Translations under genes and position numbers: made by a program
Origin: a virus
Lineage: Duplodnaviria; Heunggongvirae; Uroviricota; Caudoviricetes
IMG/VR virus record: IMGVR_UViG_2585427741_000003
Length of the DNA stretch: 20,949 bases
Strand: one strand, 5' to 3'
Shown: positions 1-20,949 of the stretch, piece after piece
How the letters are laid out: each line of letters starts with the position of its first letter
Position numbering within the stretch: position 1 is the stretch's first letter
The notes under the pieces: generated by a model
Database searches by the model: none
Seen by the model: the letters and a program-made list of their open reading frames with translations, nothing else
What the model was told of the DNA's origin: nothing

Positions 1-305
<305 letters not shown>

Positions 306-5398: not shown

Positions 5399-5534
5399 CG
5401 AGTGGCTTCTCCGGAAGTTCACTGGACAGTGTTTCGCTGTCCTACATACAATCTGAAGTTTTACCAGTTCCCTCATTGAAAGGAGAACATCTCCCGATGT
5501 TCTCCTTTCACTTCGGAATCTGATTTTTATGACG

Positions 5535-5545
5535 TAAGGGTGCGC
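5535..5545 (+). repeat. Retron inverted repeat a2
   Basis: TAAGGGTGCGC; exact reverse complement of 5387-5397; ends 2 nt before the RT start codon. Confidence 0.8.
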
Positions 5546-5547
5546 TC

Positions 5548-6522
5548 ATGACTTCCGCAACACCATCTCAGGTTTTTCGCTTACGCAATCTTGGATTGCC
5601 TGTTATGTCCTCTTTAGAGGATATGTCTAGAGAAATGCGTTTATCAGTAGACATACTCCGGTTGTACATTTATCGTGCTGACAAATACTATAAGGTTTAT
5701 TCGTTGCCAAAAAGAGATGGCAAGAGATCCCGCATCATTTCACAGCCATCACGTGAGCTGAAGGCATTGCAAGCTTGGGTGTTAAGAAACATCCTTGATA
5801 AGTTACATTCATCCCCATTTTCCAAAGGCTTTGAAAAAGGGCAATCAATATTAAATAATGCCAGCCCACATGTAGGAGCTAACTATGTATTAAATATTGA
5901 TTTAGAAGATTGTTTTAATACTATTCTGATAGAGAAAATCTATACTGTTTTTCATTCTCTGGGGTATAACTCTACTATTTCTAATGCTTTAGCAAGATTG
6001 TGTTCATTTAATGGTTCGCTACCTCAAGGTGCACCATCTTCTCCAAAGATTGCGAATCTTGTTTTAACTAAATTAGATTATAGAATACATGGATATGCAG
6101 GTAGTAAGGGGATCGTATTTACTCGATATGCCGATGATTTGACTTTATCTGCTCAATCTTTAAAAAAAATACTTAAAGCTAAGTCATTTGTATGCTCTAT
6201 AATACCAAGTGAATCTTTGAAGGTTAATTATAATAAAGTTGCGATTCATGGCCCCAAAGCAAGGAAGGAGGTTACTGGGCTCGTTTTATCTATTGATAAT
6301 GTTGGAGTTGGCAGAATACGTTATCGCGAAATTAGAAGTAAGATCCATTATCTGGCGGTAAAAAGAAATTCTGATTTCGAACATGTTAAAGGACTTATTG
6401 CGTTTGTTAAAAGTGTAGACAAGAAAAACTATAGAAAATTGATGACTTTCTCAAATAAAATGTCTGAAGCATATGGGGTTGATCTAAGTGTTCTTTTTCC
6501 TAAAAACAAAAAGGCCATTTAA
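5548..6522 (+). CDS. ret: Retron-type reverse transcriptase
   Basis: 324 aa; RT motifs: PKRDGKRSRIISQP (motif 1/2), NASPH (retron NAxxH), LPQGAPSSPKIANL (motif 4), RYADDL (catalytic YADD), and the retron-specific VTG (EVTGLVL). Size is typical of Ec86/Ec73-class RTs. Low-GC composition. Confidence 0.92.
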   Translation: MTSATPSQVFRLRNLGLPVMSSLEDMSREMRLSVDILRLYIYRADKYYKVYSLPKRDGKRSRIISQPSRELKALQAWVLRNILDKLHSSPFSKGFEKGQSILNNASPHVGANYVLNIDLEDCFNTILIEKIYTVFHSLGYNSTISNALARLCSFNGSLPQGAPSSPKIANLVLTKLDYRIHGYAGSKGIVFTRYADDLTLSAQSLKKILKAKSFVCSIIPSESLKVNYNKVAIHGPKARKEVTGLVLSIDNVGVGRIRYREIRSKIHYLAVKRNSDFEHVKGLIAFVKSVDKKNYRKLMTFSNKMSEAYGVDLSVLFPKNKKAI

Positions 6523-6532
6523 TGGCCTTTTT
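6508..6532. terminator. Palindromic A/T-flanked hairpin between convergent RT and portal genes (possible bidirectional terminator)
   Basis: AAAAAGGCCATTTAATGGCCTTTTT is a perfect 25-nt palindrome. It overlaps the RT stop codon and ends 5 nt before the portal gene stop (6538-6540, minus strand). Short GC stem, so moderate confidence. Confidence 0.45.
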
Positions 6533-6537
6533 GTTTA

Positions 6538-7569
6538 TTAGGTAATTGAATAACTCACGAAATTAATAACTTCTTCATTTATCCATTCGTTCAGCTCTTC
6601 TAGTCTTTTTTGTAAAGGGATGAGTTCATTCCTCACAAAAACATTAGCAGCTTTCTCTACATCCCCAAACCCTCCAACATTATTAGGCATAATCCCCATC
6701 ATTTGCGGTGGCACACGATGCGCCGCCATCATGTCATCCCGGCTCACGTTCTTGATGTTCAGAAACTCATCCTTCGCCGCGACCTCTGACAACGGGATAA
6801 TCTGAAGCCCGTCCTTTTTGCCGTTAGGCGAGTACATAAACAGGTTGCGGAAGTTACCCGGTCCTTTGGCGCTTTTCATCGCGTTGCGGAGGTTGTTCAC
6901 GTCCTCCTGGTTCTGCGCGGCATCGGTCATGTACATGATGAAGCCAGCATGACTGCCGTTTATGTAATACTTTCGACGGAACAGCGTGGCGGACTCATTG
7001 AGCAGGGCGGACGGAATAGCAGAAAGATAGCCGGGCAGGCCATAGATCTCCTGATTTATGTCCGGTTCCATCAGATGGAAAATGCTGCCTTTCGTGAACT
7101 GATACGGTTGCGTGGTCATGCCGTATTGCACAAACCAGTAGGTATCTAGGTCTAATCCACGTCGGGTGTATTTTGCCAGCGCAGGCTCAAGAGCGATAAC
7201 TTCACCGAATCGGTTCGTGCGTTTCTCCAGGTAGGCGTTACCAAATACCAGATAGTCCTGCACAAAACGTGAAAAAGCCTGCTGGCTGAGCAGCGGGTGA
7301 GGGATGTAGGTACTGGTCAGAATGTTGCACTTTACTGCAATCGGGGAACTGTGATGCACAGCAGCGCGGAAGGTGCGCGCCAGTCCGTCAAAGCTGACGG
7401 GAGGCTCATACCAGCGATCTGTCTGTACGCATTCCACATAGTCCAGCAGTTCGCGGCGGTCAAGTACGGGAATGGGATCACCGAAGCTGAATGCTTCGGC
7501 TGTAGTCTGGCTTTTGAGCTGGCTCTGTTTCGTCGCCGCAGCGCGGTTCTTCTTACTCTTTCCCATCAA
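6538..7569 (-). CDS. Q: Portal protein, P2 gpQ-like
   Basis: 343 aa (P2 Q about 344 aa, recalled); position and orientation (leftward, next to P) match the P2/186 map. Start overlaps the stop of P (ATGA). Confidence 0.85.
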   Translation of the reverse strand: MMGKSKKNRAAATKQSQLKSQTTAEAFSFGDPIPVLDRRELLDYVECVQTDRWYEPPVSFDGLARTFRAAVHHSSPIAVKCNILTSTYIPHPLLSQQAFSRFVQDYLVFGNAYLEKRTNRFGEVIALEPALAKYTRRGLDLDTYWFVQYGMTTQPYQFTKGSIFHLMEPDINQEIYGLPGYLSAIPSALLNESATLFRRKYYINGSHAGFIMYMTDAAQNQEDVNNLRNAMKSAKGPGNFRNLFMYSPNGKKDGLQIIPLSEVAAKDEFLNIKNVSRDDMMAAHRVPPQMMGIMPNNVGGFGDVEKAANVFVRNELIPLQKRLEELNEWINEEVINFVSYSIT

Positions 7570-9332
7570 AAAATCTCCACAATATTGCTGGTATTGGCAG
7601 ACTCGCCCTGCAGCGGTTCGTTAAAGAGTGCGTGCATTGTTGCCCAGGCCAGATCGGCATGGCTGGCTTCTTCGCTGCGGCTGGCTTCATAGGTCGGGCG
7701 GTTGCCGCTGGCGGTGGTGGCGCGACGGATTGCCATGAAGGACTGCGCAATGTCGGTGTGTCCGGCGTCAAATTCTAGGCGGCGGTGACTGATAATGTCG
7801 TAGGCCTTGAGTACCAGGGCGTTTTTAACGTTGGGGTTGTAGACAAACTCCCGGACGGCAGGAAAGAATGCTTTCACGTTCTCGTAAACCCCGTGGCCGA
7901 CGCCAGTTGAGTCGATGCCGATGTATGTCACGTTGTACTGTTCGGTCAGTTTTTTGATGGCGTCAGCCTGGGCGCGGAAGTCCATCCCGCGCCACTGGTG
8001 ACGCTCAAGAATGCGGAACTTACCGCCCGGCACGGCTGGCGGTGCCACCACCACGCACCCGGCGCTGTCGCCGTTTTGCGTACCTTTTGCCGGGTCATAA
8101 CCGATCCACACTTCGCGCCAGCCAAACGGGCGCAGGGCCAGTGCATGAAAGTCGGTCCAGACTTCCCAGCTGTCCACCATGCACGCCTGCAGCTCGCTGA
8201 GCGGGAACACGGACGCGAGATCGTCCACGAATTCACACATCAGCAGGTTCTGGTATTCGTCCGGGCTGTATTCCATGCGCAACTGGTCAAGGTCGAACAG
8301 GTTACAGCCGCCGCGCACCGCATCTTCCACGGTGACTATCTGGCGGTATTGCCCGTCTGCACACAGCAGGCCTGGAGCCAGATTGCTGTGGGACAGGTCG
8401 ATGTCCACCTTGTCGGCTTTATTGCGCCCACGGTTGAACAGCGCACCGGACCAGAACGGATAAGCACTGTGTGTCAGGCTGGATGGCGTGGAAAAATAGG
8501 TTTGTCGCCATTTTTTGTGAATAGCCATACCGGAAGCCACTTTGCGCAGCTCCTGGAATTTCGGTATCCAGAAATATTCATCCAGATACAGGTTGCCGTG
8601 GTAACTCTGGGCCGTGCGGGCATTGGTGCCGAGGAAGTACAGCGTGGCCCCGTTAGGAAGCACCATCGGATCGCCTTTCAGCTCCACCTCCACTTCTTTG
8701 GCAAAGTCGATGATGTACTGCTTAAAGACGTGGGCCTGTGCCTTACTGGCGGAAAGGAAAATCTGGTTACGTCCGGTCAGCAGGGCGTCAATCAGGGCTT
8801 CACGGGCAAAATAGAAGGTCGCGCCGATCTGGCGTGACTTCAGCAGGTTGCGGATGCGGTTGGTTTTTCCGGCTTCCCACCAGTGGCGCTGGTAGTTGAA
8901 CATGGAGGAATGGAAGATTTCTTCCAGCTTCTCAATCTGTTCATCGGTGAAGACATTCTTTTCCGGCTGACGGCGCGGGCCCTTGTTGCGGTTGGCGACG
9001 TTAGGATTTAAGTCGGCTTCGTTGCCGCCATTGTTAAACTTGCCGATCCGCGCGTGGCGCTCCGACTGGCGCGCCAGCAGGTCAATCTCTTTGAAATCTT
9101 TCCCTTCTTTGTGCTCCTTCATAATGAGCTGGCAGTAGCGTGCGGCGGTGGTGAGCTGCATCTGATCCAGCGGCCCATAGTCACCCCACTTGTCGCGTTT
9201 TTTCCAGCTGTGAACGGTTGCAACTTTCTCGCCCAGCATTTCAGCAATGCGGGCTACGCGGTATCCCTGAAAGTACAGCAGCATGGCCTGCCGACGGGGA
9301 TCGAGATCTGCGGGTGTCAGTGTGGTGTTCAT
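7566..9332 (-). CDS. P: Terminase ATPase (large) subunit, P2 gpP-like
   Basis: 588 aa (P2 P about 590 aa, recalled); leftward orientation, divergent from the O-N-M-L operon as in P2/186. Confidence 0.85.
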   Translation of the reverse strand: MNTTLTPADLDPRRQAMLLYFQGYRVARIAEMLGEKVATVHSWKKRDKWGDYGPLDQMQLTTAARYCQLIMKEHKEGKDFKEIDLLARQSERHARIGKFNNGGNEADLNPNVANRNKGPRRQPEKNVFTDEQIEKLEEIFHSSMFNYQRHWWEAGKTNRIRNLLKSRQIGATFYFAREALIDALLTGRNQIFLSASKAQAHVFKQYIIDFAKEVEVELKGDPMVLPNGATLYFLGTNARTAQSYHGNLYLDEYFWIPKFQELRKVASGMAIHKKWRQTYFSTPSSLTHSAYPFWSGALFNRGRNKADKVDIDLSHSNLAPGLLCADGQYRQIVTVEDAVRGGCNLFDLDQLRMEYSPDEYQNLLMCEFVDDLASVFPLSELQACMVDSWEVWTDFHALALRPFGWREVWIGYDPAKGTQNGDSAGCVVVAPPAVPGGKFRILERHQWRGMDFRAQADAIKKLTEQYNVTYIGIDSTGVGHGVYENVKAFFPAVREFVYNPNVKNALVLKAYDIISHRRLEFDAGHTDIAQSFMAIRRATTASGNRPTYEASRSEEASHADLAWATMHALFNEPLQGESANTSNIVEIF

Positions 9333-9378
9333 GGCACAAACCTACAGCCTTGAATGAAGGCTTTCCCCGCCTGCGGTT

Positions 9379-9396
9379 TGTGTGGTTGTCGGTACA
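9379..9396. promoter_or_regulatory. TGT-N12-ACA element in the divergent P/O late-promoter region (Ogr/Delta-type activator site candidate)
   Basis: TGTGGTTGTCGGTACA = TGT-N12-ACA in the 142-bp intergenic region between divergent P and O. Centred about 88 bp upstream of the O start codon. Confidence 0.5.
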
Positions 9397-9474
9397 AATA
9401 CCGCGCATTGTTTCACTGCCCCCATCACCGCAACCATAAGGCTCCAGTAAGTTTTTTCTAACGGAGCACGGCTC

Positions 9475-10308
9475 ATGACAGTGAAAGCAAAGCGTTTTCG
9501 CATCGGGGTGGAAGGTGCCACCACCGACGGACGCGAAATCCAGCGTGAATGGCTGGAACAGATGGCAGCCAGCTACAACCCGACGGTGTACACCGCGCTG
9601 ATTAACCTTGAGCACATCAAGTCTTATCTGCCGGACAGCACCTTTAACCGCTACGGCAAGGTGACGGCGCTGTTTGCTGAAGAAATCACGGAAGGTCCGC
9701 TGGCAGGCAAGATGGCGCTGTATGCCGACGTTGAGCCAACGGAGTCCCTGGTGGAACTGGTGAAAAAAGGCCAGAAATTATTCACCTCTATGGAAGTCAG
9801 CCCGAAGTTTGCTGATACGGGCAAAGCCTACCTGGTCGGCCTGGCTGCCACTGATGACCCTGCCAGTCTGGGCACTGAAATGCTGACATTCAGCGCCAGT
9901 GCAGCCCATAACCCGTTGGCAAACCGCAAGCAGAATCCTGCCAATCTCTTTACCGCTGCAGAGGAAACGGTGATCGAACTGGAAGAAATCCAGGACGACA
10001 AACCGTCCCTGTTTGCCCGCGTCACGGCGCTGTTTACCAAAAAAGAGCAGTCCGATGACGCCCGGTTCTCTGATGTGCATAAGGCCGTGGAGCTGGTCGC
10101 CACTGAGCAGCAGAACCTGAGCGCACGCACCGAAAAATCCCTGTCTGAGCAGGAAGAACGCCTGTCTGAGCTGGAGACTGCCCTGCAGGCACAGCAAACC
10201 GCCTTTAACGAACTGGTGGACAAGCTGAGTCATGAAGACAGTCGCCAGGACTACCGCCAGCGTGCAACAGGCGGTAACGCCCCCGCTGACACTCTGACCA
10301 ATTGCTGA
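9475..10308 (+). CDS. O: Capsid scaffolding protein, P2 gpO-like
   Basis: 277 aa; blocks FRIGVEG..DGR, INLEH, LVGLAATDDPASLGTE, SDDARFSDVH and a C-terminal ATGG.... motif align with recalled P2 gpO. Confidence 0.9.
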   Translation: MTVKAKRFRIGVEGATTDGREIQREWLEQMAASYNPTVYTALINLEHIKSYLPDSTFNRYGKVTALFAEEITEGPLAGKMALYADVEPTESLVELVKKGQKLFTSMEVSPKFADTGKAYLVGLAATDDPASLGTEMLTFSASAAHNPLANRKQNPANLFTAAEETVIELEEIQDDKPSLFARVTALFTKKEQSDDARFSDVHKAVELVATEQQNLSARTEKSLSEQEERLSELETALQAQQTAFNELVDKLSHEDSRQDYRQRATGGNAPADTLTNC

Positions 10309-10324
10309 TGGAGCACAAAACCCG

Positions 10325-11383
10325 ATGAAGAAGAATACCCGCTTTGCTTTTAACGCTTACCTGCAGCAACTGGCGCGTCTGAACGGTGTGGCAGTTGAAG
10401 AACTGTCCAGCAAGTTCACCGTAGAGCCGTCTGTGCAGCAGACGCTGGAAGACCAGATCCAGCAGTCCGCCGCTTTCCTGACGCTGATTAACGTCACGCC
10501 AGTGACTGAGCAGTCCGGTCAGCTGCTGGGGCTGGGAGTTGGCAGCACCATTGCCGGAACCACTGACACCACCGCGAAAGAGCGTGAACCTGTCGATCCG
10601 ACGCTGATGGTCGATGTGGAATATAAATGCGAGCAGACCAACTTTGACACGGTACTGACCTACGCGAAGCTGGACCTGTGGGCGAAGTTTCAGGATTTCC
10701 AGGTGCGCATCCGTGACGCCATCGTGAAACGTCAGGCTCTGGACCGCATCATGATCGGCTTTAACGGCGTGAAGCGTGCGAAAACCTCCAACCGTAGCGA
10801 AAACCCGCTGCTGCAGGATGTGAACAAAGGCTGGCTGCAGAAAATCCGTGAAGATGCACCGGATCACGTCATGGGCAGCACCACCACGGGCGGTGAAACC
10901 ACACCGGGTGCGGTGAAAGTCGGGAAAGGGGGCGAATATGCCAACCTGGACGCCGTGGTGATGGATGCCGTCAATGAGCTTATCGATGTGGTCTACCAGG
11001 ACGATGACGATCTGGTGGTGATTTGCGGTCGTGAACTGCTGTCTGACAAGTATTTCCCGCTGGTCAACAAAGAGCAGGAAAACAGTGAAAAACTGGCTGC
11101 CGATATGATCATCAGTCAGAAACGCATGGGTGGCCTGCAGGCCGTGCGTGCGCCGTTCTTCCCGCCGAATGCACTGCTGATCACCCGTCTGGATAACCTG
11201 TCCATCTACTGGCAGGAAGACACCCGCCGCCGCTCAGTTATCGACAACCCGAAACGTGACCGGATTGAAAACTTTGAATCCGTTAACGAAGCCTATGTGG
11301 TTGAGGACTACCGCTGCGCCGCACTGGTGGAAAACATCCAGATTGGCGACTTCAGCGCCGCAGCAGCAGAAACCGGAGCGTAA
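10325..11383 (+). CDS. N: Major capsid protein, P2 gpN-like
   Basis: 352 aa; RFAFNAYL, KFTVEPSV, GFNGVKRA, VGKGG.YA.LDA.VMDA, IISQKR and LENLSIY blocks match recalled P2 gpN. Confidence 0.92.
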   Translation: MKKNTRFAFNAYLQQLARLNGVAVEELSSKFTVEPSVQQTLEDQIQQSAAFLTLINVTPVTEQSGQLLGLGVGSTIAGTTDTTAKEREPVDPTLMVDVEYKCEQTNFDTVLTYAKLDLWAKFQDFQVRIRDAIVKRQALDRIMIGFNGVKRAKTSNRSENPLLQDVNKGWLQKIREDAPDHVMGSTTTGGETTPGAVKVGKGGEYANLDAVVMDAVNELIDVVYQDDDDLVVICGRELLSDKYFPLVNKEQENSEKLAADMIISQKRMGGLQAVRAPFFPPNALLITRLDNLSIYWQEDTRRRSVIDNPKRDRIENFESVNEAYVVEDYRCAALVENIQIGDFSAAAAETGA

Positions 11384-11386
11384 TTC

Positions 11387-12037
11387 ATGAGCCTGAGTCC
11401 CGCACGGCAGCATCGCCTGCGCGTTCAGGCTGAACAGGCCGCCCGCGAGGGCGGCAGCGTTCGCCACGCGTCGGGCTATGACCTGATGCTGCTGCAACTG
11501 GCGGAAGACCGCCGCCGTCTCAAGGGCGTTCAGTCCACGGTCAAAAAAGCGGAAATCAAGGTGGAGCTGCTGCCGAAGTACGCCGCCTGGGCGGAGGGTG
11601 TCCTGGCTGCCGGAGGCGCTCAACAGGATGACGTGCTGATGTACGTGATGCTGTGGCGCATTGATGCCGGAGATTATGCCGGGGCGCTGGAGATCGGGCG
11701 TCACGCCCTGCGTCATGGCTGGGTGATGCCGTTAGGTAACCGCAACGTGCAGACCGTGCTGGCAGAGGAAATGGCAGACGCCGCGCAGAGCGCAATGCTT
11801 GCCGCCACCGGCTTTGATGCCGATCTGTTGTTGCAGACGCTGGAGCTGACAGACGGTCTGGATATGCCGGACCAGTCACGGGCGCGTCTGCATAAAGCGA
11901 TTGGCGCTGTCCTGAGTGAAAGAAATCCGGCGTCTGCCCTTAATCATCTCAACCATGCGTTACAGCTCGATCCCCGCTGTGGCGTGAAAAAAGACAAACA
12001 GCAGCTGGAGCGCAGACTGCGCAATGACAGCCGCTGA
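11387..12037 (+). CDS. M: Terminase endonuclease (small) subunit, P2 gpM-like
   Basis: 216 aa; follows N by 3 nt; position matches P2 M. Confidence 0.8.
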   Translation: MSLSPARQHRLRVQAEQAAREGGSVRHASGYDLMLLQLAEDRRRLKGVQSTVKKAEIKVELLPKYAAWAEGVLAAGGAQQDDVLMYVMLWRIDAGDYAGALEIGRHALRHGWVMPLGNRNVQTVLAEEMADAAQSAMLAATGFDADLLLQTLELTDGLDMPDQSRARLHKAIGAVLSERNPASALNHLNHALQLDPRCGVKKDKQQLERRLRNDSR

Positions 12038-12132
12038 CAGAACGTGCCCCCGCGCACGGGCGGCACGGGGTGGCGAAAGGCACTGCCACATCAAAACTCC
12101 GTCCACCGCCCTCTATTTCAGGAGAAAGCAGC

Positions 12133-12597
12133 ATGAAGTTTGTTGCGCCAGAACAGGCACCGGAACAGGCGGAAATCATCAGGAATACGCCGTTCTGGCC
12201 TGATGTGGACCTGTCGGAGTTTCGCAGTGTGATGCGCACTGACGGCACGGTGACGCAGCCGCGTTTAAAACAGGTTGCCCTGTCGGCAATTTCGGAGGTC
12301 AACGCAGAGCTGTATGAGTTTCGCAGACGCCAGCAGATGCTGGGGTATGCCTCGCTGGCAGAAGTCCCGGCGGAACAACTGGACGGCAAAAGCGAGCGCA
12401 TTCAGCACTATTTCAACGCGGTTTACTGCTGGGCACGCGCCATGCTCAACGAACGTTACCAGGACTATGACGCCACGGCATCCGGTGTGAAGCGGGGCGA
12501 GGAACTGGCAGAAGCCAGCGGTGATTTGTGGCGTGACGCCCGCTGGGCCATCTGCCGGGTACAGGATGCGCCGCACTGCACAGTGGAGCTTATCTGA
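12133..12597 (+). CDS. L: Head completion/stabilisation protein, P2 gpL-like
   Basis: ATG 12133 with RBS CAGGAGAAAG; NAELYEFR and DLWRD.RWA..R.Q blocks match recalled P2 gpL. The ORF-track start at 12070 is an upstream extension. Confidence 0.85.
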   Translation: MKFVAPEQAPEQAEIIRNTPFWPDVDLSEFRSVMRTDGTVTQPRLKQVALSAISEVNAELYEFRRRQQMLGYASLAEVPAEQLDGKSERIQHYFNAVYCWARAMLNERYQDYDATASGVKRGEELAEASGDLWRDARWAICRVQDAPHCTVELI

Positions 12598-12800
12598 TGA
12601 AAGTGCGTGCGCATCAGTATGACACGGTGGACGCACTTTGCTGGCGTCATTACGGGCGCACGCAGGGTGTCACGGAGCAGGTACTGAAGGCAAATCCGGG
12701 GCTTGCCGAATTTGGCCCTTTTTTACCTCACGGGCTGCAGGTGGATCTGCCGGACATTCCGACCACCACCACCGTGCAGACCGTCCAGCTATGGGACTGA
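12597..12800 (+). CDS. X: Tail protein, P2 gpX-like
   Basis: 67 aa; RYYGRT.GV.E.VL.ANPGLAE.G..LPHG pattern matches recalled P2 gpX; same length. Confidence 0.85.
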   Translation: MKVRAHQYDTVDALCWRHYGRTQGVTEQVLKANPGLAEFGPFLPHGLQVDLPDIPTTTTVQTVQLWD

Positions 12801-12803
12801 ATT

Positions 12804-13019
12804 ATGACGCTTGAGCGAATCAGCGCCTTTATCACGTATTGCATCGCCGTCGTGCTGGCCTGGCTGGGCGATTTGTCCATCAAGGATGCCTCAACGCTGG
12901 GTGGCCTGATGATTGGTGTGCTGATGCTGGCTATCAACTGGTACTACAAACACAAAGCCTACCAGCTTCTGCGCGACGGGCAGATCTCGCGGGAGGATTA
13001 TGAATCCATCAATCGTTAA
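12804..13019 (+). CDS. Holin candidate (two predicted transmembrane segments; possibly pinholin-like)
   Basis: 71 aa; two hydrophobic stretches (ISAFITYCIAVVLAWLG and LGGLMIGVLMLAINWYY) with a charged C-terminal tail; sits immediately upstream of the endolysin gene. Confidence 0.6.
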   Translation: MTLERISAFITYCIAVVLAWLGDLSIKDASTLGGLMIGVLMLAINWYYKHKAYQLLRDGQISREDYESINR

Positions 13020-13512
13020 ACGCTGCCTTGTCGGGGCCGTGCTGGCTATTGCTGCCACGCTGCCGGGTTTTCAGCAGCTTCACACCTCCGTGGAGGGGCT
13101 GAAACTGATTGCCGATTACGAAGGCTGTCGTCTGCAGCCGTATCAGTGCAGCGCGGGTGTCTGGACCGACGGCATTGGTAATACGTCGGGCGTCATTCCC
13201 GGCAAAACTATTACGGAACGACAGGCAGCAGAAGGGCTGATCTCCAACGTGCTACGTGTGGAGCGGGCGCTGGAAAGGTGTGTGAAGCAACAGCCGCCGC
13301 AGAAGGTGTATGACGCGGCGGTGTCGTTTGCCTTCAACGTGGGGACGGGCAATGCCTGCAGTTCCACGCTGGTGAAATTACTCAATCAGCGGCGCTGGGC
13401 GGATGCGTGCCGACAGTTGCCGCGCTGGGTTTATGTGAAAGGTGTGTTTAATCAGGGGCTGGATAACCGCCGTGTGCGGGAGATGGCCTGGTGTTTACAG
13501 GGAGCAAACTGA
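13000..13512 (+). CDS. Endolysin, phage lysozyme (T4-lysozyme-like fold) with N-terminal weakly hydrophobic segment (possible SAR domain)
   Basis: 170 aa; N-terminal Ala/Gly-rich hydrophobic segment LVGAVLAIAATLPGF followed by EG.RL..Y....G.WT.GIGNT, which resembles the lysozyme catalytic region. Confidence 0.7.
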   Translation: MNPSIVKRCLVGAVLAIAATLPGFQQLHTSVEGLKLIADYEGCRLQPYQCSAGVWTDGIGNTSGVIPGKTITERQAAEGLISNVLRVERALERCVKQQPPQKVYDAAVSFAFNVGTGNACSSTLVKLLNQRRWADACRQLPRWVYVKGVFNQGLDNRRVREMAWCLQGAN

Positions 13513-13513
13513 A

Positions 13514-13891
13514 ATGAAAAAGAAATTAATCAGCGGGCTGTTTCTGATGTTATGGATGGCGCTGTTAATCGCAGCAATGGCGTATCCGCAGGGGATTTTT
13601 CCGGTACTGGCAGCGTCCGGCGTTTGGGTAGCCTGTTTGCTGACATGGGCGGTAATTCCGGTAGCACTGGCTGCGTTAATTAAGAATGGCCCGCTCTGGC
13701 AGGAGTTGAGGGCATCTTTGCTGAAGGCAATTACCCGAAAAGAAAACGTATTTATCAGCTGGGTGATGCGATTGCTGATTGTCGTAAGTCTCGCCTGGAC
13801 GGGGTGGGCCATTACCCTGGTCTTTTATCTGCTGACCGTTATTGCCTTCTGGATCACCCGTAATCAGATGGCGCAACAGGTAGCAGCATGA
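13514..13891 (+). CDS. lysA: LysA-like membrane protein (lysis accessory)
   Basis: 125 aa from ATG 13514; multiple hydrophobic segments; position after the endolysin as in the P2 lysis cassette. Confidence 0.6.
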   Translation: MKKKLISGLFLMLWMALLIAAMAYPQGIFPVLAASGVWVACLLTWAVIPVALAALIKNGPLWQELRASLLKAITRKENVFISWVMRLLIVVSLAWTGWAITLVFYLLTVIAFWITRNQMAQQVAA

Positions 13892-14316
13892 ACCGGTTGC
13901 TGCTGGTTGTGCTGGCGTTATTACTGGCGGCGCTGGGCTGGCAGACGTGGCGGCTGGCTGATGCCAGCCAGACCATCAGCACGCAGGCAGACGAACTGCA
14001 GAGCAAAAGCCAGGCGCTGGCAAAGAGCAACAGCCAGCTTATCAGCCTGTCCATTCTGACTGAAACCAATAACCGGGAGCAGGCGCGGCTCTATGCCGAA
14101 GCAGAACAGACCAGCGCGCTGCTGAGACAACGACAACACCGGATTGAGGAACTGAAACGTGAGAACGAGGATTTACGCCGCTGGGCTGATACTCCTTTGC
14201 CTGCTGACATTATCCGGCTGCGGGAACGTCCGGCACTCACCGGAGGTGCAGCTTACCGTCAGTGGTTGTCCGCGAGTGACGCCGTGTTGGCTGGATCAGG
14301 CAGCGCCGCGCACTAA
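13888..14316 (+). CDS. lysB: LysB, Rz-like inner-membrane spanin
   Basis: 142 aa; N-terminal transmembrane anchor LLLVVLALLLAALGW followed by a coiled-coil-like charged region. Confidence 0.75.
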   Translation: MNRLLLVVLALLLAALGWQTWRLADASQTISTQADELQSKSQALAKSNSQLISLSILTETNNREQARLYAEAEQTSALLRQRQHRIEELKRENEDLRRWADTPLPADIIRLRERPALTGGAAYRQWLSASDAVLAGSGSAAH

Positions 14317-14449
14317 CGGTGATCTGAACGCGTTGCTGGATGAAACGGAGGCTGCCTGGGCGGTCTGTGCAGACAAAGTGGACATGATTATTGCGTGTCA
14401 GGAGCGAAACAGTGAACAAACCACAATCCCTGCGCCACGCCCTCAATAA
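14159..14449 (+). CDS. lysC: LysC, Rz1-like outer-membrane lipoprotein spanin (overlapping lysB in a different frame)
   Basis: GTG start; signal peptide with lipobox LTLSGC; starts inside lysB in the +1 frame and extends beyond it, as for P2 lysB/lysC. Confidence 0.65.
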   Translation: MRTRIYAAGLILLCLLTLSGCGNVRHSPEVQLTVSGCPRVTPCWLDQAAPRTNGDLNALLDETEAAWAVCADKVDMIIACQERNSEQTTIPAPRPQ

Positions 14450-14843
14450 AGCGGTGCCTTATGTCCGCAATAACCCGGACAAACTGCATCTGTTTGTGGA
14501 TAACGGTTCGCTGGTTGCTACGGGGGCCAGCTCCATGTCGTGGGAGTACCGTTACACCCTGAACGCGGTGATTGAGGATTTCAGCGGCGACCAGAATCTG
14601 CTGATGGCCCCGGTTTTGCTGTGGCTGAGGGATAACCAGCCCGATGCCATCAATAACCCGGCGTTACGGGAAAAACTATTCACCTTTGAGGTGGATATTC
14701 TGCGCAACGATGTCTGTGATATCAGCCTGAACCTGCAACTGACGGAGCGTGTGCTGGTCAGCACTGACGGTAGTGTGTCGAGCGTTGAAGCTATAGCGGA
14801 ACCTGATGAACCTGAAGAAATGTGGACGGTGAAACGTGGCTGA
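14412..14843 (+). CDS. R: Tail completion protein, P2 gpR-like
   Basis: FVDNGS, RYTLN, LWLR.NQPD and ISL.L.LTER.LVS blocks match recalled P2 gpR. GTG at 14412 has an AGGAG RBS upstream; the ORF-track start at 14391 is 7 codons further upstream, so the start is uncertain by about 21 nt. Confidence 0.8.
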   Translation: MNKPQSLRHALNKAVPYVRNNPDKLHLFVDNGSLVATGASSMSWEYRYTLNAVIEDFSGDQNLLMAPVLLWLRDNQPDAINNPALREKLFTFEVDILRNDVCDISLNLQLTERVLVSTDGSVSSVEAIAEPDEPEEMWTVKRG

Positions 14844-15282
14844 ACTGCAGAAAGTGGACGACTGGCTGAGTGCCTTGCTGGCGAATCTGGAGCCAGCCGC
14901 CAGAAGTCGCATGATGCGCCAGCTGGCGCAGGAACTGCGCCGGACACAGCAGCAGAACATCAGGATGCAACGCAATCCTGATGGCAGCAGCTATGAACCG
15001 AGGCGAGTAACAGCACGCAGTAAAAAAGGCCGTATCAAACGGCAGATGTTTACAAAACTTCGCACCACAAAATACCTGAAAACTGCCGCTAGCGCCGACT
15101 CTGCCAGCGTGCAGTTTGAAGGTAAGGTGCAGCGCATTGCCCGTGTTCACCATTACGGCTTGCGCGATCGCATCAGTCGCAAAGGACCTGAGGTCCGTTA
15201 CGCAGAACGTCGCCTTCTGGGTGTAAATGATGATGTTGAGGCAATGACCCGCGACATGATTCTGCAATGGCTGGCGGGGTGA
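14836..15282 (+). CDS. S: Tail completion / virion morphogenesis protein, P2 gpS-like
   Basis: 148 aa, GTG start overlapping the end of R; size and position match P2 S. Confidence 0.8.
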   Translation: MAELQKVDDWLSALLANLEPAARSRMMRQLAQELRRTQQQNIRMQRNPDGSSYEPRRVTARSKKGRIKRQMFTKLRTTKYLKTAASADSASVQFEGKVQRIARVHHYGLRDRISRKGPEVRYAERRLLGVNDDVEAMTRDMILQWLAG

Positions 15283-15286
15283 TCTT

Positions 15287-15304
15287 TGTATCAGCACTGA
15301 TACA
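15287..15304 (+). promoter_or_regulatory. Late promoter activator site (TGT-N12-ACA) upstream of V
   Basis: TGTATCAGCACTGATACA, part of the near-perfect palindrome TTGTATCAGCACTGATACAA in the S-V intergenic region. Confidence 0.6.
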
Positions 15305-15350
15305 AGTTGCAGCACTGCCGCCTTTCTTCCCCTGATGGCAACCTTTCCCT

Positions 15351-15925
15351 ATGAACGCACAATTAACCGAAATCATGCGCCTTATCACCAACCTGATCCG
15401 CACAGGGGTAGTCACCGAAGTGGACAGGGAAAACTGGCTGTGCCGGGTGAAAACGGGCGAGCTTGAAACCAACTGGATCAGCTGGCTGACACTGCGCGCG
15501 GGAATCGCGCACCTGGTGGAAACCGTCTGTGGGTGAGCAGGTGGTGCTGCTGAGTCTGGGCGGCAATCTGGAAACCGCCTTTGCCCTGCCCGCGGTCTAC
15601 TCAAACCAGTTCCACCACCGTCGACTCGGAAGACGCCAACGTGACAGAACACCCGGACGGCGGCTGGTTTGAATACGAACCCACTACCGGGCGCTGGTAT
15701 GTCAGGGGCATCAAATCAATGGTCATTGAGGCCGCTGACAATATCACCCTGAAAACCAGTGAGTTTGTGCTGGAGGCTGACCGCACGCGTATTAACAGCG
15801 AAGTGGTGATCAATGGTGGCGTTACCCAGGGCGGCGGAGCGATGAGCTCTAACGGGATTGTGGTTGATGCGCATCAGCATACTGGCGTCCTGAAAGGCGG
15901 CGATACAACCGGAGGCCCGGTATGA
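15351..15925 (+). pseudogene. V: Baseplate spike protein gene (P2 gpV-like) interrupted by two frameshifts
   Basis: gpV-like translation runs through three frames: frame a 15351-15503 (MNAQLTEIMRLITNLIRTGVV...WLTLRAG), frame b about 15505-15609 (SRTWWKPSVGEQVVLLSLGGNLETAFALPAVYSNQ), frame c about 15614-15925 (TVDSEDANVTEHPDGGWFEYEP...SSNGIVVDAHQHTG). Frame a stops at 15534-15536. Confidence 0.75.
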
Positions 15926-16281
15926 CGCTTTATAGCGGGATGAACAATACCAGCGGCAAAGTCATTACTGATATTGATCATCTGCGCCAGTCGGTGCGGG
16001 ACATTCTGCTGACACCGCAGGGTAGCCGCATTGCCCGCCGGGAATATGGTTCCCTCCTGTCGGTTTTAATAGATCAGCCACAAAATCCGGCATTACGCCT
16101 GCAGGTCATGTCGGCAGTGTATGTGGCGCTGAGTCGCTGGGAGCCACGGCTGACGCTGGATTCCATCACCATCAACAGCAACTTTGACGGTTCTATGGTG
16201 GTGGAGCTGACCGGGCGGCGGAATAACGGTGTGCCTGTGTCCCTTTCCGTATCAACAGGAGCAGAGAATGGCAGTGATTGA
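15922..16281 (+). CDS. W: Baseplate protein, P2 gpW-like
   Basis: 119 aa; DILLTP.GSR..RR.YGSLL...IDQPQ.PAL and RWEPR..L blocks match recalled P2 gpW. Confidence 0.88.
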   Translation: MTLYSGMNNTSGKVITDIDHLRQSVRDILLTPQGSRIARREYGSLLSVLIDQPQNPALRLQVMSAVYVALSRWEPRLTLDSITINSNFDGSMVVELTGRRNNGVPVSLSVSTGAENGSD

Positions 16282-17176
16282 CCTTTCGCAGTTGCCTGCA
16301 CCGCAGATTGTGGATGTGCCGGACTTTGAGACGCTGCTTGCCGAACGCAAGGCAGAATTTGTGGCGCTTCATCCGAAAGATGAGCAGGAAGCCGTGATCC
16401 GCACGCTGGAACTGGAATCTGAACCCGTCACTAAATTGTTGCAGGAGAACGCTTACCGTGAGTTGCTTCTGCGCCAGCGCATTAACGAAGCCGCGCAGGC
16501 GGTGATGGTGGCTTACGCGATGGGCGGCGATCTTGACCAGCTCGCTGCCAACTACAACGTGACACGCCTGACGGTGACGCCTGCTGATAATGATGCTGTG
16601 CCGCCCGTTGCAGCTGTGATGGAAAGCGATGAAGCGTTACGCCTGCGTGTGCCTGCAGCCTTTGAAGGGCTTTCAGTTGCGGGGCCAACTGTAGCTTATG
16701 AATTTCATGCCCGAAGCGCCGACGGTCGGGTGGCGGATGCCAGTGCAACCAGCCCGGCACCTGCAGAGGTGGTGCTGACTGTCCTTAGCCGCGAAGGCGA
16801 TGGAACTGCAGAAAAAGACCTGCTGGACGTGGTGGAAAAAGCTCTGAACAGTGAGAACGTCCGCCCGGTGGCTGACCGTCTTACGGTTCGCAGCGCAGAA
16901 ATCATCCCGTATCGCGTGGAAGCCACTATTTTTCTCTATCCGGGACCGGAAGCAGAGCCGGTAATGGCAGCGGCAAAAGCCAGTCTGCAGAAGTACATTG
17001 CCAGCCAGACGAGGCTTGGTCGGGATATTCGCCGTAGCGCCATCTTTGCTGCTCTGCATGTTGAGGGTGTTCAACGTGTGGAACTGGCTTCTCCGCTGGC
17101 GGATGTGGTCCTGAACAAAACACAGGCGGCATCATGTACGCAGTGGAGCGTAACCAACGGAGGAACGGATGAATAG
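16268..17176 (+). CDS. J: Baseplate protein, P2 gpJ-like
   Basis: 302 aa from ATG 16268 (RBS AGGAGC). IDLSQLPAP, TLELESEP, YHGRSADGRVADAS and LHVEGVQRVELASPLAD blocks match recalled P2 gpJ, which has the same length. The ORF-track start at 16229 is an upstream extension. Confidence 0.92.
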   Translation: MAVIDLSQLPAPQIVDVPDFETLLAERKAEFVALHPKDEQEAVIRTLELESEPVTKLLQENAYRELLLRQRINEAAQAVMVAYAMGGDLDQLAANYNVTRLTVTPADNDAVPPVAAVMESDEALRLRVPAAFEGLSVAGPTVAYEFHARSADGRVADASATSPAPAEVVLTVLSREGDGTAEKDLLDVVEKALNSENVRPVADRLTVRSAEIIPYRVEATIFLYPGPEAEPVMAAAKASLQKYIASQTRLGRDIRRSAIFAALHVEGVQRVELASPLADVVLNKTQAASCTQWSVTNGGTDE

Positions 17177-17774
17177 TCTGCTGCCACCGGGTTCAACTTC
17201 ACTGGAGCGCCGACTGGCGCAAACCTGTAGCGGGATTTCTGATCTGCAGGTGCCGCTGCGTGACTTGTGGAATCCGGCGACTTGTCCGGTCAGTTTCCTG
17301 CCTTATCTCGCCTGGGCGTTCTCTGTGGATCGCTGGGACGAGAGCTGGACAGAAAGCGTCAAACGCCAGGTGGTGAAGGATGCTTTTTATATTCATCAGC
17401 ACAAAGGAACCACCAGTGCCGTGCGGCGGGTGGTGGAGCCGTTCGGCTTCCTGATCCGCATTATTGAGTGGTGGCAGACCGGAGAAACACCGGGCACGTT
17501 TCGCCTGGATATCGGCGTGCAGGATCAGGGCATCACTGAAGATACCTATCTGGAACTTGAGCGGCTGATAAGCGATGCCAAACCATGTAGCCGTCACATG
17601 ATCGGCATGTCCATCAATCTGCAGACCAGCGGTCCGCATTGGGTGGGGGCCGCCAGCTATCTTGGCGAAGAAATCACGATCTATCCGTATATCAACGAAA
17701 CAATTATTTCCGGCGGCACCGCGCATGAAGGCGGGGCGGTCCATGTTATTGACACAATGAGAGTGAATCCATGA
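17169..17774 (+). CDS. I: Baseplate / tail-fibre attachment protein, P2 gpI-like
   Basis: 201 aa; LWNP.TCP, LAWAFSVDRWDE, HKGT and GTFRLDIGV blocks match recalled P2 gpI. Confidence 0.9.
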   Translation: MNSLLPPGSTSLERRLAQTCSGISDLQVPLRDLWNPATCPVSFLPYLAWAFSVDRWDESWTESVKRQVVKDAFYIHQHKGTTSAVRRVVEPFGFLIRIIEWWQTGETPGTFRLDIGVQDQGITEDTYLELERLISDAKPCSRHMIGMSINLQTSGPHWVGAASYLGEEITIYPYINETIISGGTAHEGGAVHVIDTMRVNP

Positions 17775-19168
17775 GCACAAAATTTTATACCCTGCTGACG
17801 GATATTGGCGCGGCGAAACTTGCCAGCGCCGCCGCGCTCGGTGTGCCTTTAAAAATTACCCATATGGCGGTAGGCGATGGCGGCGGAACATTGCCAACGC
17901 CGGACGCAAAGCAGACAGCATTAGTAAATGAGAAACGCCGGGCTGCGCTGAATATGCTGTACATCGACCCGCAGAACAGCAGCCAGATTATTGCCGAACA
18001 GGTGATCCCTGAAAACGAGGGCGGTTGGTGGATACGTGAAGTGGGCTTGTTTGATGAGTCCGGGGCATTGATTGCCGTGGGCAACTGCCCGGAAAGCTAT
18101 AAGCCGCAACTGGCTGAAGGTAGCGGGCGCACTCAGACCGTGCGCATGGTGCTGATTACCAGCAGCACGGACAATATCACCCTGAAAATCGACCCTGCCG
18201 TCGTGCTGGCAACCCGCAAGTATGTGGATGACAAGGTACTGGAGCTGAAGGTGTTCGTGGATGATAAGATGGCAAAACATCTTGCCGCACCGGACCCGCA
18301 TTCACAGTATGCACCCAAAGAAAGCCCGACATTGACCGGAACACCCAAAGCGCCAACGCCAGCGGAGGGGAATAACACCACGCAGATTGCGACCACCGCG
18401 TTTGTTCAGGCGGCACTGATGGCCCTTATTAATGGTGCGCCAGCCACACTGGATACGCTGAAAGAAATTGCCGCTGCCATTAATAATGACCCGAAATTCA
18501 GTACCACCATTAACAATGCGCTGGCACTGAAAGCGCCGCTGTTAAGTCCGGCACTCACCGGAACGCCAACAGCCCCCACTGCCGCACAGTCGGTTAACAA
18601 TACACAGATTGCCACCACGGCTTTTGTGAAATCGGCAATTGCGGCAATGGTGGGGTCTGCACCTGCTGCACTGGATACACTGAACGAACTGGCTGCGGCG
18701 CTGGGGAATGACCCGAACTTTGCCACGACAATGCTTAATGCGCTGGCAGGTAAACAACCGCTGGACAATACGCTGACTAATTTGAGTGGAAAGGATGTAG
18801 CTGGTCTTCTCGCATACCTTGGTTTGGGAGAATTATCTCTGGCTGGCACTGCATCGGGTGTCATTGGCCTGAATGGGTATGTAACGATCCCGTTAATTAT
18901 TTCAGGTTCCCGGAGAACACTGATTATTCAGTGGGGGCAGGCGAGATTTGGTGGGTCTGGTGGTGAAGATGCCGGATATCTTAACGATTTTCCTTTTGCC
19001 TTTCCGTCAGCATGTTATGGAATGATAGTTAGTCATGTGGGGCATACACCTTCAGGCGCAGGAATCTTGTCGGCTTCTGCAATTACATCAAATCAGTTCC
19101 GCGGTTTTTCAAGCATAGCGACTGCTGCAAACGCTGTATTAGGTCGTTATATCGCTATAGGGGTGTAA
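17771..19168 (+). CDS. H: Tail fibre protein, P2 gpH-like; C-terminal about 116 codons (18820-19168) lie inside the invertible segment
   Basis: 465 aa; N-terminal 160 aa match recalled P2 gpH (MAVGDGGG, AESYKPALAEGSGR-like blocks). Central tandem fibre repeats (ALTGTPTAPT...NNTQIATTAFV...LDTLNELAAALGNDPNFATT) are shared with P2 H. The C-terminus downstream of the crossover site is unrelated to P2 H. Confidence 0.9.
   Translation: MSTKFYTLLTDIGAAKLASAAALGVPLKITHMAVGDGGGTLPTPDAKQTALVNEKRRAALNMLYIDPQNSSQIIAEQVIPENEGGWWIREVGLFDESGALIAVGNCPESYKPQLAEGSGRTQTVRMVLITSSTDNITLKIDPAVVLATRKYVDDKVLELKVFVDDKMAKHLAAPDPHSQYAPKESPTLTGTPKAPTPAEGNNTTQIATTAFVQAALMALINGAPATLDTLKEIAAAINNDPKFSTTINNALALKAPLLSPALTGTPTAPTAAQSVNNTQIATTAFVKSAIAAMVGSAPAALDTLNELAAALGNDPNFATTMLNALAGKQPLDNTLTNLSGKDVAGLLAYLGLGELSLAGTASGVIGLNGYVTIPLIISGSRRTLIIQWGQARFGGSGGEDAGYLNDFPFAFPSACYGMIVSHVGHTPSGAGILSASAITSNQFRGFSSIATAANAVLGRYIAIGV
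18322..18762 (+). repeat. Two tandem ~220-bp (about 74-codon) imperfect repeats inside the tail-fibre gene
   Basis: Protein-level repeat: TLTGTPKAPTPAEGNNTTQIATTAFVQAALMALINGAPATLDTLKEIAAAINNDPKFSTTINNALALKAP versus ALTGTPTAPTAAQSVNNTQIATTAFVKSAIAAMVGSAPAALDTLNELAAALGNDPNFATTMLNALAGKQP. Confidence 0.8.
18807..18832. promoter_or_regulatory. Left crossover site of the invertible segment (gix/hix/pix-like, 26 bp)
   Basis: TTCTCGCATACCTTGGTTTGGGAGAA: 26 bp with imperfect dyad symmetry around a central TT. The inner 14 bp TTGGTTTGGGAGAA are exactly repeated in inverted orientation at 20679-20692. Confidence 0.7.
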
Positions 19169-20181: not shown

Positions 20182-20691
20182 TATGCAGCCCTCACGATAT
20201 ACGCAAATGCCAGGTTCCGTGGTCTGGTTTCTTTAATTAAAGAGGAGGCATCAGGTGAACTCACTGATTCAGCACCATTTCTTCCACCAGTGGTATAAGT
20301 AAAAACTCTTTCACTGTTAGACCAGTAATCCACACCAACTGTTTTTGCTGATGAAAAAATGGTTTCATCAGATATAACCTGTTCTATTCCATACGGGATA
20401 TTAGTAACTGACCCCACTTTTGTAGGTATTCCATGATTATGAGAAATTACTGCATGCTCTTGATTCGTTAATAAAGTACGACCGCTATCCACTCCACGCC
20501 CGTCATCCCAGCCACGAATAAACTCACCACGTAAATCAGGCAATTTATTTGTCGGATAAGCCTTTGCCAGTTCCGGGTATTCTTCAGCAGAAAAAGCGGC
20601 ACCGTTGCATTTCAGCCAGCCTGTTGGCGGAGTGGCGGAAGGCCACGGAACAGGCACGCCAACGGGTAATGCCGAACCTTCTCCCAAACCA
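20181..20691 (-). CDS. Alternative tail fibre C-terminal segment (promoterless, expressed only after inversion fuses it to the constant part of H)
   Basis: Minus-strand frame is open from the crossover site (..GLGE GSALPVGVPVPWPSATPPTGWLKCNGAAF...) to the stop at 20181. It shares the in-frame GLGE junction codons with H at 18819-18832. The ORF-track Met at 20732 lies outside the segment and is unlikely to be a real start. Confidence 0.7.
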
Positions 20692-20704
20692 ACGTTTATG
20701 AAAA
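20679..20704. promoter_or_regulatory. Right crossover site of the invertible segment
   Basis: TTCTCCCAAACCAACGTTTATGAAAA with central AA; its reverse complement TTTTCATAAACGTTGGTTTGGGAGAA shares the 14-bp inner half with the left site. Confidence 0.7.
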
Positions 20705-20759: not shown

Positions 20760-20949
20760 ATGCTTATTGGCTATGTACGCGTGTCAACAAATGACCAGAA
20801 CACCGATTTGCAACGTAGTGCGCTGAACTGCGCGGGATGTGAGCGGATTTTTGAGGATAAAATCAGCGGCACTAAGTCCGACAGACCGGGGCTGAAAAAA
20901 CTGCTCAGGACACTATCGGCAGGAGACACGCTGGTTGTCTGGAAGCTGG
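20760..20949 (+). CDS. Serine DNA invertase (Gin/Pin/Cin/Hin family), N-terminal part; 3' end outside window
   Basis: MLIGYVRVSTNDQNTDLQRSALNCAGCERIFEDKISGTKSDRPGLKKLLRTLSAGDTLVVWKL: the canonical N-terminus of the small serine invertases, with the catalytic Ser in the YVRVST motif. Confidence 0.9.
   Translation, partial: MLIGYVRVSTNDQNTDLQRSALNCAGCERIFEDKISGTKSDRPGLKKLLRTLSAGDTLVVWKL

What the first reader, a model, noticed from the sequence alone, without database searches (positions are those of the whole stretch)
15351..15925. Baseplate spike gene V is split across three reading frames
The gpV-like translation is continuous only if the reading frame is changed twice, near 15504 (after ..WLTLRAG) and near 15610 (after ..AVYSNQ, in a CCACCACC context). 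Both shifts go the same way, so they do not compensate, and as sequenced the first frame ends at a stop at 15534-15536. Every other late gene in the window is intact. Either the prophage is defective for tail assembly while keeping its cargo, or these are two indel errors in the assembly.
Basis: seen in the sequence. Interest (0 to 1): 0.6.

Follow-up and report, generated by a model that had tools for sequence, protein, structure and literature searches.

The report
Broken spike gene is assembly artefact
The tail-spike gene V of this E. coli P2-like prophage does read as three out-of-frame pieces, but the damage looks like an assembler blending two intact versions of the gene, so it is almost certainly not a real mutation.

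Summary
Gene V (15351-15925) is split over three frames, the first frame stops at 15534-15536, and all ~30 other genes are intact.

The window is the whole contig JOQG01000046.1 of E. coli 4-203-08_S1_C3 (Illumina 100-bp reads, MaSuRCA/Celera assembler). Compared with intact 579-nt V genes it lacks 4 nt at three sites, not two: -2 near 15503, -1 near 15612, -1 near 15623.

All three sites lie in a 280-bp patch (15407-15685). There, every base but one comes from one of two natural intact alleles:
- A: the allele carried by the relatives that share this prophage's flanks.
- B: the allele of E. coli 95-3322.

The window equals the consensus of an optimal edit-distance alignment of A and B with every gap column dropped.

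At 23 consecutive A/B-discriminating sites (15558-15683) the window carries the alphabetically first base, across 12 A/B switches (P <= 4e-6). Both 1-nt gaps lie inside that run. This rule is not strand-symmetric, so it points to a software tie-break ('-'<A<C<G<T), not biology.

Verdict: a chimeric consensus of two V alleles, from a second prophage or contaminant reads. It is not a pseudogene and not recoding. Interest is low. Raw reads or Sanger sequencing would settle it.

The parts
15351..15925 (+). Gene V (P2 gpV-type baseplate central spike) as assembled: 575 nt instead of 579, read in three frames.
15351..15536 (+). Fragment 1, 61 aa (GenBank KEK92115.1). It holds the N-terminal half of the OB domain and ends at TGA 15534-15536.
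   Evidence: This exact protein is found on no other contig of the 153-billion-gene index.
15529..15672 (+). Fragment 2, 47 aa (KEK92116.1). Only its first 28 residues are V-like (V residues 61-88).
   Evidence: Its protein cluster has a single member.
15581..15925 (+). Fragment 3, an ORF of 114 aa (annotated as 68 aa from 15719, KEK92117.1). It holds the beta-helix and the Apex motif.
15407..15685 (+). Chimeric patch where bases of allele B are interleaved with allele A. Outside it, gene V and its flanks are pure A-lineage.
15498..15506 (+). Lesion site 1: net -2 nt. Four gap columns (two compensating pairs) of the optimal A/B alignment are all dropped.
15610..15613 (+). Lesion site 2: net -1 nt. 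One compensating gap pair is dropped.
15622..15626 (+). Lesion site 3: net -1 nt. One compensating gap pair is dropped.
15558..15683 (+). Run of 23 consecutive A/B-discriminating sites at which the window has the alphabetically first of the two bases (11 A-type, 12 B-type, 12 switches).

Best explanation
The three-frame gene V is a consensus artefact of the draft assembly.

The read set held two intact V alleles. Allele A belongs to this prophage. Allele B came from a second P2-like prophage in the same genome, or from contaminating or mixed reads. The two alleles are identical or nearly so at both ends of the gene but about 17% different in its centre.

The assembler was MaSuRCA 2.3.2. It reduces reads to super-reads and then runs the Celera overlap-layout-consensus assembler. 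It placed a B-type sequence of about 280 nt into the A-type contig. Where one A and one B sequence were stacked, every disagreement was a 1:1 tie and was settled by a fixed symbol order ('-' before A before C before G before T).

Mismatch columns therefore took the alphabetically first base. Each column where the pairwise alignment had put a gap in either sequence was dropped. Four compensating gap pairs were lost in this way, which removed 2+1+1 nt and produced the frameshifts.

What is shown: the sequence is exactly such a consensus, and it obeys that order. What is inferred: the step of the assembler responsible (bubble popping or consensus tie-break), and the source of allele B.
For: 1. 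Provenance. The window is the whole contig JOQG01000046.1 of GCA_000713975.1, E. coli 4-203-08_S1_C3. That study used HiSeq 100-bp reads and MaSuRCA 2.3.2 (PMC6222053).

2. Uniqueness. Only V is broken among about 30 genes. The 61-aa and 47-aa fragments exist on no other contig.

3. No private substitutions. Against 76 unique intact alleles the window's V has none. Only the indel columns are private.

4. Two parents suffice. Alleles A (L028/L001 type) and B (L015, E. coli 95-3322) explain every base but one.

5. Gap columns. The unit-cost edit distance between A and B is 64, against a Hamming distance of 65. An optimal alignment of cost 64 has 8 gap columns, exactly at the three lesion sites. 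The window equals its consensus with all gap columns dropped. This holds for many B-type alleles.

6. Rarity of such sites. Cost-free sites are 13 of 579 positions for a 1-nt deletion and 2 of 578 for a 2-nt deletion. The chance that random deletions land on them at all three lesions is about 1.7e-6.

7. Alphabetical rule. At 23 consecutive discriminating sites (15558-15683; 11 A-type, 12 B-type, 12 switches) the window has the alphabetically first base. Both 1-nt gaps lie inside this run. Around site 1, two mismatch columns and four gap columns obey the same rule. P <= 4e-6. No natural allele exceeds a run of 5 with 3 or more switches. The rule takes A over G and also C over T, which is not strand-symmetric, so no repair or mutation bias can produce it.

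8. Clean flanks. 100-nt windows from 13400 to 16700 lie 0-2 edits from the nearest relative. The centre of V lies 3-12 edits away even with about 110 relatives in the panel. No copy in 5,426 complete E. coli genomes is more than 92.9% identical there.

9. Relatives are intact. Relatives that share the flanks carry intact, pure A-type V: L033 and L117 downstream, and L125 with the same rare LysB upstream.

10. A known trouble spot. At least 13 other draft assemblies contain 231-431-nt contigs made only of the V centre (V residues about 7-26 to 90-160). This shows the region is a recurrent two-allele assembly bubble.
Against: - No reads were available, so the presence of a second allele in the data is inferred, not seen.
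- I could not find another contig of this assembly that carries allele B.
- Only about 2-3% of V-positive complete E. coli genomes carry more than one copy.
- The tie-break order of MaSuRCA 2.3.2/Celera was not checked in its source code. I recall it from memory only.
- In parts of the patch one allele wins outright (15443-15481 and 15543-15555 are B; 15507-15531 is A). This needs uneven local depth of the two alleles.
- One base (15407, G) is not explained by the chosen A/B pair, although it is common in other B-type alleles.
- Fine mosaicism alone is not diagnostic. Natural intact alleles such as L093 and L098 also need 18-21 switches between their best two parents.
- The prophage has an IS5 junction at its left end, so some real decay cannot be excluded.
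Confidence: 0.9

Rival explanations
1. Real pseudogene. The prophage's V gene is a natural mosaic allele that suffered three independent deletions (-2, -1, -1). The prophage would then be unable to build a baseplate spike unless it is complemented.
For: Natural V alleles are highly mosaic, so the substitution pattern alone could be natural. Lesion sites 2 and 3 could be read as losses within short runs (CCC, GG) of a hypothetical allele. The prophage carries an IS5 junction about 35 nt upstream of dam, which suggests it may no longer be under selection.
Against: - Three frameshifts fall within 121 nt, with no private substitution in the gene and no other broken gene in 20.9 kb.
- No intact version of this allele exists among about 1000 copies in complete E. 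coli genomes or among 76 unique panel alleles.
- All three lesions coincide with the rare cost-free gap sites of the A/B alignment, about 1.7e-6 by chance.
- The alphabetical run of 23 sites has no biological cause.
Confidence: 0.05
2. Real homeologous gene conversion. A strand from a co-resident B-type prophage invaded the A-type V gene. The heteroduplex formed paired bulges where a one-base shift pairs better, and patchy short-patch repair resolved mismatches at random and removed the bulged bases. A truly chimeric, frameshifted gene would remain.
For: It would also predict a patch of about 280 bp made only of A and B bases, with deletions where the A/B pairing favours bulges.
Against: - It needs 16 or more independent repair tracts, some only 1 nt apart, in a heteroduplex with 17% mismatches. 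From established knowledge, E. coli MutHLS repair is long-patch and strand-directed.
- It cannot explain why the retained base is always the alphabetically first one on the + strand, since A-over-G together with C-over-T is not strand-symmetric.
Confidence: 0.03
3. Programmed recoding. Ribosomes shift frame to make full-length gpV from the split gene.
For: Both net shifts go in the same direction, and the fragments overlap slightly.
Against: - Every homologue examined is a single 579-nt ORF. That covers 1,000+ E. coli copies annotated as intact V and 592 confirmed viral-contig matches, of which the best 80 were fetched.
- There are three shift points, not two.
- No slippery motif is visible at them.
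- The fragments are unique to one draft contig.
Confidence: 0.005

Closest known systems
Bacteriophage P2 gpV baseplate central spike (PDB 3qr8, 3qr7; Pfam PF04717 and PF18946)
   Same: The stitched translation has the OB domain (E=7e-18) and the Apex motif. It matches 3qr8 at E=2e-43. The gene sits in the P2 order R-S-V-W-J-I.
   Different: As assembled it is 4 nt short and split over three frames. Intact relatives encode 192 aa (P2 gpV itself is 211 aa).
Collapsed-repeat or popped-bubble consensus errors in overlap-layout-consensus assemblies (Celera Assembler / MaSuRCA)
   Same: The sequence is a column-by-column blend of two paralogous alleles. Gap columns are dropped and ties are resolved in a fixed symbol order. 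The patch is about the size of a 300-bp library fragment or a super-read.
   Different: I could not inspect the reads, the layout or the assembler's code. The exact step responsible is inferred.
V-centre bubble contigs in other Enterobacteriaceae draft assemblies
   Same: At least 13 assemblies have 231-431-nt contigs that consist only of the V centre. That is the same segment that is chimeric here.
   Different: Those assemblers kept the second allele as a separate small contig. Here it was merged into the main contig.
Wadgaonvirus / Elveevirus P2-like prophages of E. coli and Klebsiella (e.g. Escherichia phage 500465-1, Klebsiella phage 4LV2017)
   Same: 92-96% DNA identity over the late region, with intact V of 579 nt.
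   Different: They differ in cargo and tail-fibre alleles. The window carries a retron St85 system and an IS5 junction.

Membership tests
P2 gpV baseplate spike protein | N-terminal OB-fold domain (Pfam PF04717) | tested here: met
   Stitched translation scores 65.1 bits, E=7.4e-18, over residues 17-84. As assembled, the domain is split between fragments 1 and 2.
P2 gpV baseplate spike protein | C-terminal Apex motif (PF18946) and homology to solved P2 gpV | tested here: met
   Apex motif at E=6.7e-6. PDB 3qr8_A at E=2e-43 and 3qr7_A at E=6.7e-8.
P2 gpV baseplate spike protein | Position between the tail-completion gene S and the baseplate genes W, J and I | tested here: met
P2 gpV baseplate spike protein | One uninterrupted ORF of about 192 codons | tested here: not met
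   The gene is in three frames, with a stop at 15534-15536. I judge this an artefact of the record, not of the gene.
Assembly consensus artefact (two alleles merged) | Every base can be derived from two intact parental sequences | tested here: met
   Alleles L028 and L015 leave 1 of 575 bases unexplained.
Assembly consensus artefact (two alleles merged) | Indels coincide with gap columns of the parental alignment | tested here: met
   An optimal alignment (cost 64, equal to the edit distance) has its 8 gap columns at the three lesions. Such sites are rare: 13 of 579 and 2 of 578 positions.
Assembly consensus artefact (two alleles merged) | A non-biological, deterministic choice at tied columns | tested here: met
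   23 consecutive sites take the alphabetically first base, and gaps win ties. P <= 4e-6. No natural allele does this.
Assembly consensus artefact (two alleles merged) | Reads of both alleles are present, and no read spans the chimeric junctions | not testable with these tools
Decaying prophage pseudogene | Lesions accompanied by other signs of neutral decay (private substitutions, other broken genes) | tested here: not met
   No private substitutions in V. All other genes are intact.
Decaying prophage pseudogene | The same lesions seen in independent sequences of the lineage | tested here: not met
   The fragments are unique to this contig. Holders of the same rare LysB allele or the same gpS protein have intact V.
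Programmed ribosomal frameshift | Split-frame arrangement conserved in homologues | tested here: not met
   All homologues examined are single ORFs.

The most novel reading that the evidence does not exclude
The 575-nt sequence is real. It would be a homeologous gene-conversion patch between two co-resident P2-like prophages, resolved by very-short-patch repair with loss of bulged bases. That would leave a dead spike gene in a prophage that keeps its retron cargo.
Probability: 0.03. Interest if true: 0.35.

Novelty: not a real feature. Interest (0 to 1): 0.06.

Why it matters
There is little biological consequence. The prophage should not be scored as tail-defective because of gene V. GenBank proteins KEK92115.1, KEK92116.1 and KEK92117.1 are fragments of an artefact.

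The practical value is methodological. Popped-bubble consensus errors in this kind of assembly can be recognised from the sequence alone. The signs are (a) indels at the gap columns of an alignment of two known alleles and (b) an alphabetical choice at discriminating sites. The same test could flag false pseudogenes in other MaSuRCA/Celera-era draft genomes, which feed into pseudogene and 'defective prophage' statistics.

The result also suggests that this isolate, or its read set, contains a second P2-like V allele.

Tried and rejected
- An exact-pattern scan of viral contigs for the window-specific stretch TCGGAAGACGCCAACGTGACAGAACACCC found nothing.
- A paper search for the WGS accession found nothing. 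The source paper was found through the strain-naming scheme instead.
- I first took the fine A/B mosaicism itself as evidence of chimerism. Minimum-switch and best-pair analyses showed that natural intact alleles can be just as mosaic: the window needs 15-16 switches and some panel alleles need up to 21. I dropped that argument. I kept only the gap-column and alphabetical tests.
- I tested whether the whole 9.4-15.35 kb block that differs 2-3% from L117 is also a tie-break blend. It is not: 61 sites have the smaller base and 48 the larger. I treat that block as natural divergence.
- A simple fixed base preference over the whole gene was not seen. The rule holds only in defined stretches.
- I looked for sibling isolates or close relatives through the rare LysB allele. 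Only short metagenome contigs turned up. The one that reaches V has an intact A-type gene.
- Other assemblies with a 68-aa C-terminal V fragment have unrelated lesions. They are mostly error-prone long-read assemblies with many broken genes.
- An Rfam scan of the window found no family.
- Programmed frameshifting was rejected for lack of conservation.

Full report
**What is there**

The window is the complete 20,949-bp contig JOQG01000046.1 of assembly GCA_000713975.1, Escherichia coli 4-203-08_S1_C3. It holds most of a P2-like prophage: dam, gpA, a retron St85 cargo, then the Q-P-O-N-M-L-X genes, lysis genes, R-S-V-W-J-I-H, an invertible fibre segment and the start of an invertase.

Gene V lies at 15351-15925.
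- 15351-15536: 61 aa, with TGA at 15534-15536.
- 15529-15672: 47 aa.
- 15581-15925: 114 aa.

A tblastn search with the proteins of the related E. coli H1 prophage shows V in three frames. All 30 other proteins that have a counterpart in the window match in a single frame without a break. The stitched translation is a genuine gpV. It has the PF04717 OB domain and the PF18946 Apex motif, and it matches the P2 gpV structure 3qr8 at E=2e-43.

**Anatomy of the damage**

Intact homologues are uniformly 579 nt. That covers more than 1,000 copies in complete E. coli genomes, P2-like phages of Escherichia and Klebsiella, and the fetched viral contigs. The window has 575 nt.

The four missing bases are at three sites, not two:
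- 2 nt at about 15502-15505.
- 1 nt at about 15610-15613.
- 1 nt at about 15622-15626.

The 61-aa and 47-aa products occur on no other contig in an index of 153 billion gene positions.

**Where the oddity is confined**

I compared 100-nt windows of the contig with a panel of relatives. Everything from 13,400 to 16,700 is 0-2 edits from some relative. The exception is 15,400-15,690, which is 3-12 edits from the nearest of about 110 relatives. No complete E. coli genome is more than 92.9% identical there.

Despite this, the window's V has no private substitution against 76 unique alleles. Relatives that share the flanks all carry an intact V of one type, 'A': L033, L117 and L122 downstream, and L125 with the same rare LysB allele upstream. 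The window departs from A only between 15407 and 15685. There, every departure is a base of a second natural allele type, 'B', best represented by E. coli 95-3322 (L015). Together A and B explain all but one base.

**Why this is software, not biology**

1. The unit-cost edit distance between A and B is 64, one less than their in-register Hamming distance of 65. One optimal alignment has eight gap columns (four compensating pairs), exactly at the three lesion sites. The window is precisely the consensus of that alignment with every gap column omitted. This holds for many B-type alleles.
2. Positions where a deletion costs nothing in that sense are rare: 13 of 579 for 1 nt and 2 of 578 for 2 nt. 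Three random deletions would land on them with probability about 1.7e-6.
3. From 15558 to 15683, at 23 consecutive sites where A and B differ, the window has the alphabetically first of the two bases. Eleven are A-type and 12 are B-type, with 12 switches. Both single-base gaps lie inside this run. Around the first lesion, two mismatch columns and the four gap columns follow the same order if '-' ranks first.

For the third point, the chance of such a run is at most 4e-6. No natural allele in the panel shows more than 5 such sites with 3 or more switches. The rule prefers A over G and also C over T on the same strand. It is therefore not strand-symmetric, and no mutation or mismatch-repair bias can produce it. 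It is what a consensus caller produces when two sequences tie and the first symbol in '-ACGT' wins.

**Mechanism proposed**

The genomes of this study were sequenced as 100-bp HiSeq reads and assembled with MaSuRCA 2.3.2, which builds super-reads and then runs the Celera assembler (PMC6222053). Super-reads carry no depth information. One A-type and one B-type super-read therefore vote 1:1, even if B is rare in the reads.

I infer that a B-type piece of about 280 nt, anchored by shared V ends that are identical or nearly so, was merged into the A-type contig. This is the kind of merge that bubble popping performs. The consensus then blended the two. The blocks where one allele wins outright (15443-15481 and 15543-15555 are B; 15507-15531 is A) would be places with unequal local depth. 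Allele B may come from a second P2-like prophage or from mixed or contaminating reads. About 2-3% of V-positive complete E. coli genomes have more than one copy.

The V centre is a recurrent two-allele bubble elsewhere too. At least 13 other draft assemblies contain 231-431-nt contigs made only of V residues about 7-26 to 90-160.

The assembler step and the tie-break order are my inference. I recall the order from memory and did not check it in the code.

**Rivals**

- *Real pseudogene (0.05).* It would need three frameshifts within 121 nt, no private substitution, no other broken gene, and an otherwise unseen allele. It explains neither the gap-column coincidence nor the alphabetical run.
- *Real homeologous conversion with patchy repair (0.03).* It could mimic the gap-column pattern, but not the alphabetical rule.
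- *Programmed frameshifting (<0.01).* It is excluded by the complete lack of conservation.

**Caveats**

I had no reads. I could not locate allele B on another contig of the assembly. One base (15407) is not explained by the chosen pair. Mosaicism by itself proved non-diagnostic, because natural intact alleles can need as many parental switches. The 2-3% divergence from L117 between 9.4 and 15.35 kb shows no alphabetical bias (61:48) and looks natural.

**Verdict**

It is a chimeric consensus, so the gene V 'pseudogene' should be disregarded. Interest is low. K-mer counts in the raw reads, or one Sanger read, would settle it.

Noticed in passing
window 1-309: The left end of the contig is the 3' end of an IS5-family element. 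The transposase C-terminus is at 1-159, the terminal inverted repeat ...CTTATTCGCACCTTCC ends at 305, and TTAG follows. It lies about 35 nt upstream of the dam start (344). Relatives have the end of a TraR/DksA-type gene at that position. This explains why the contig breaks here. It also means the prophage's early operon may really be interrupted.
   Followed up: partly
window 4487-6522: The cargo is a retron St85-family system: an effector of STM3845 type at 4487-5398 and a reverse transcriptase at 5548-6522. Both are 100% identical in protein to the E. coli H1 prophage. Rfam at gathering thresholds finds no msr/msd RNA, or any other family, anywhere in the window.
   Followed up: partly
window 9400-15700 compared with L117 and L122: L117 and L122 are identical to the window over 4836-9400 and nearly so over 15700-18832 (L117 on to 20695). 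They differ by 2-3% across 9.4-15.7 kb. The right edge of this block coincides with the chimeric V patch. There is no alphabetical bias in the block (61:48), so it looks like a natural recombination block.
   Followed up: partly
proteins P0002-P0015 (cluster of the 61-aa fragment): At least 13 draft assemblies have whole contigs of 231-431 nt that encode only the V centre, all B-type. These are apparently graph bubbles from two co-resident V alleles. Most are E. coli or Klebsiella. One is labelled Staphylococcus aureus (WP_337121469.1) and one Pantoea sp., which probably reflects contamination in those assemblies.
   Followed up: partly
S-V intergenic region, window 15283-15350; L005, L008, L009, L011, L014, L017, L020, L023: Many relatives carry a reverse-strand accessory gene between S and V (DUF6216, DUF2971, an AAA/ABC-type ATPase, or hypothetical proteins). 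The window has only a 68-nt spacer. This seems to be a cargo insertion hot spot directly next to the V gene.
   Followed up: no
window 18751-18850 and 20601-20700; right end 20760-20949: Two stretches in the tail-fibre and invertible segment are 5-18 edits from the nearest panel sequence. The contig ends 190 nt into the invertase gene. This is probably natural fibre variability with a small panel. I did not test these stretches for the same consensus artefact.
   Followed up: no
L018, L025, L027 (other assemblies): Several chromosome-scale assemblies have V, W, J and R all fragmented by scattered single-base indels. This is typical of unpolished long-read assemblies. Their lesions are unrelated to those in the window.
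   Followed up: partly
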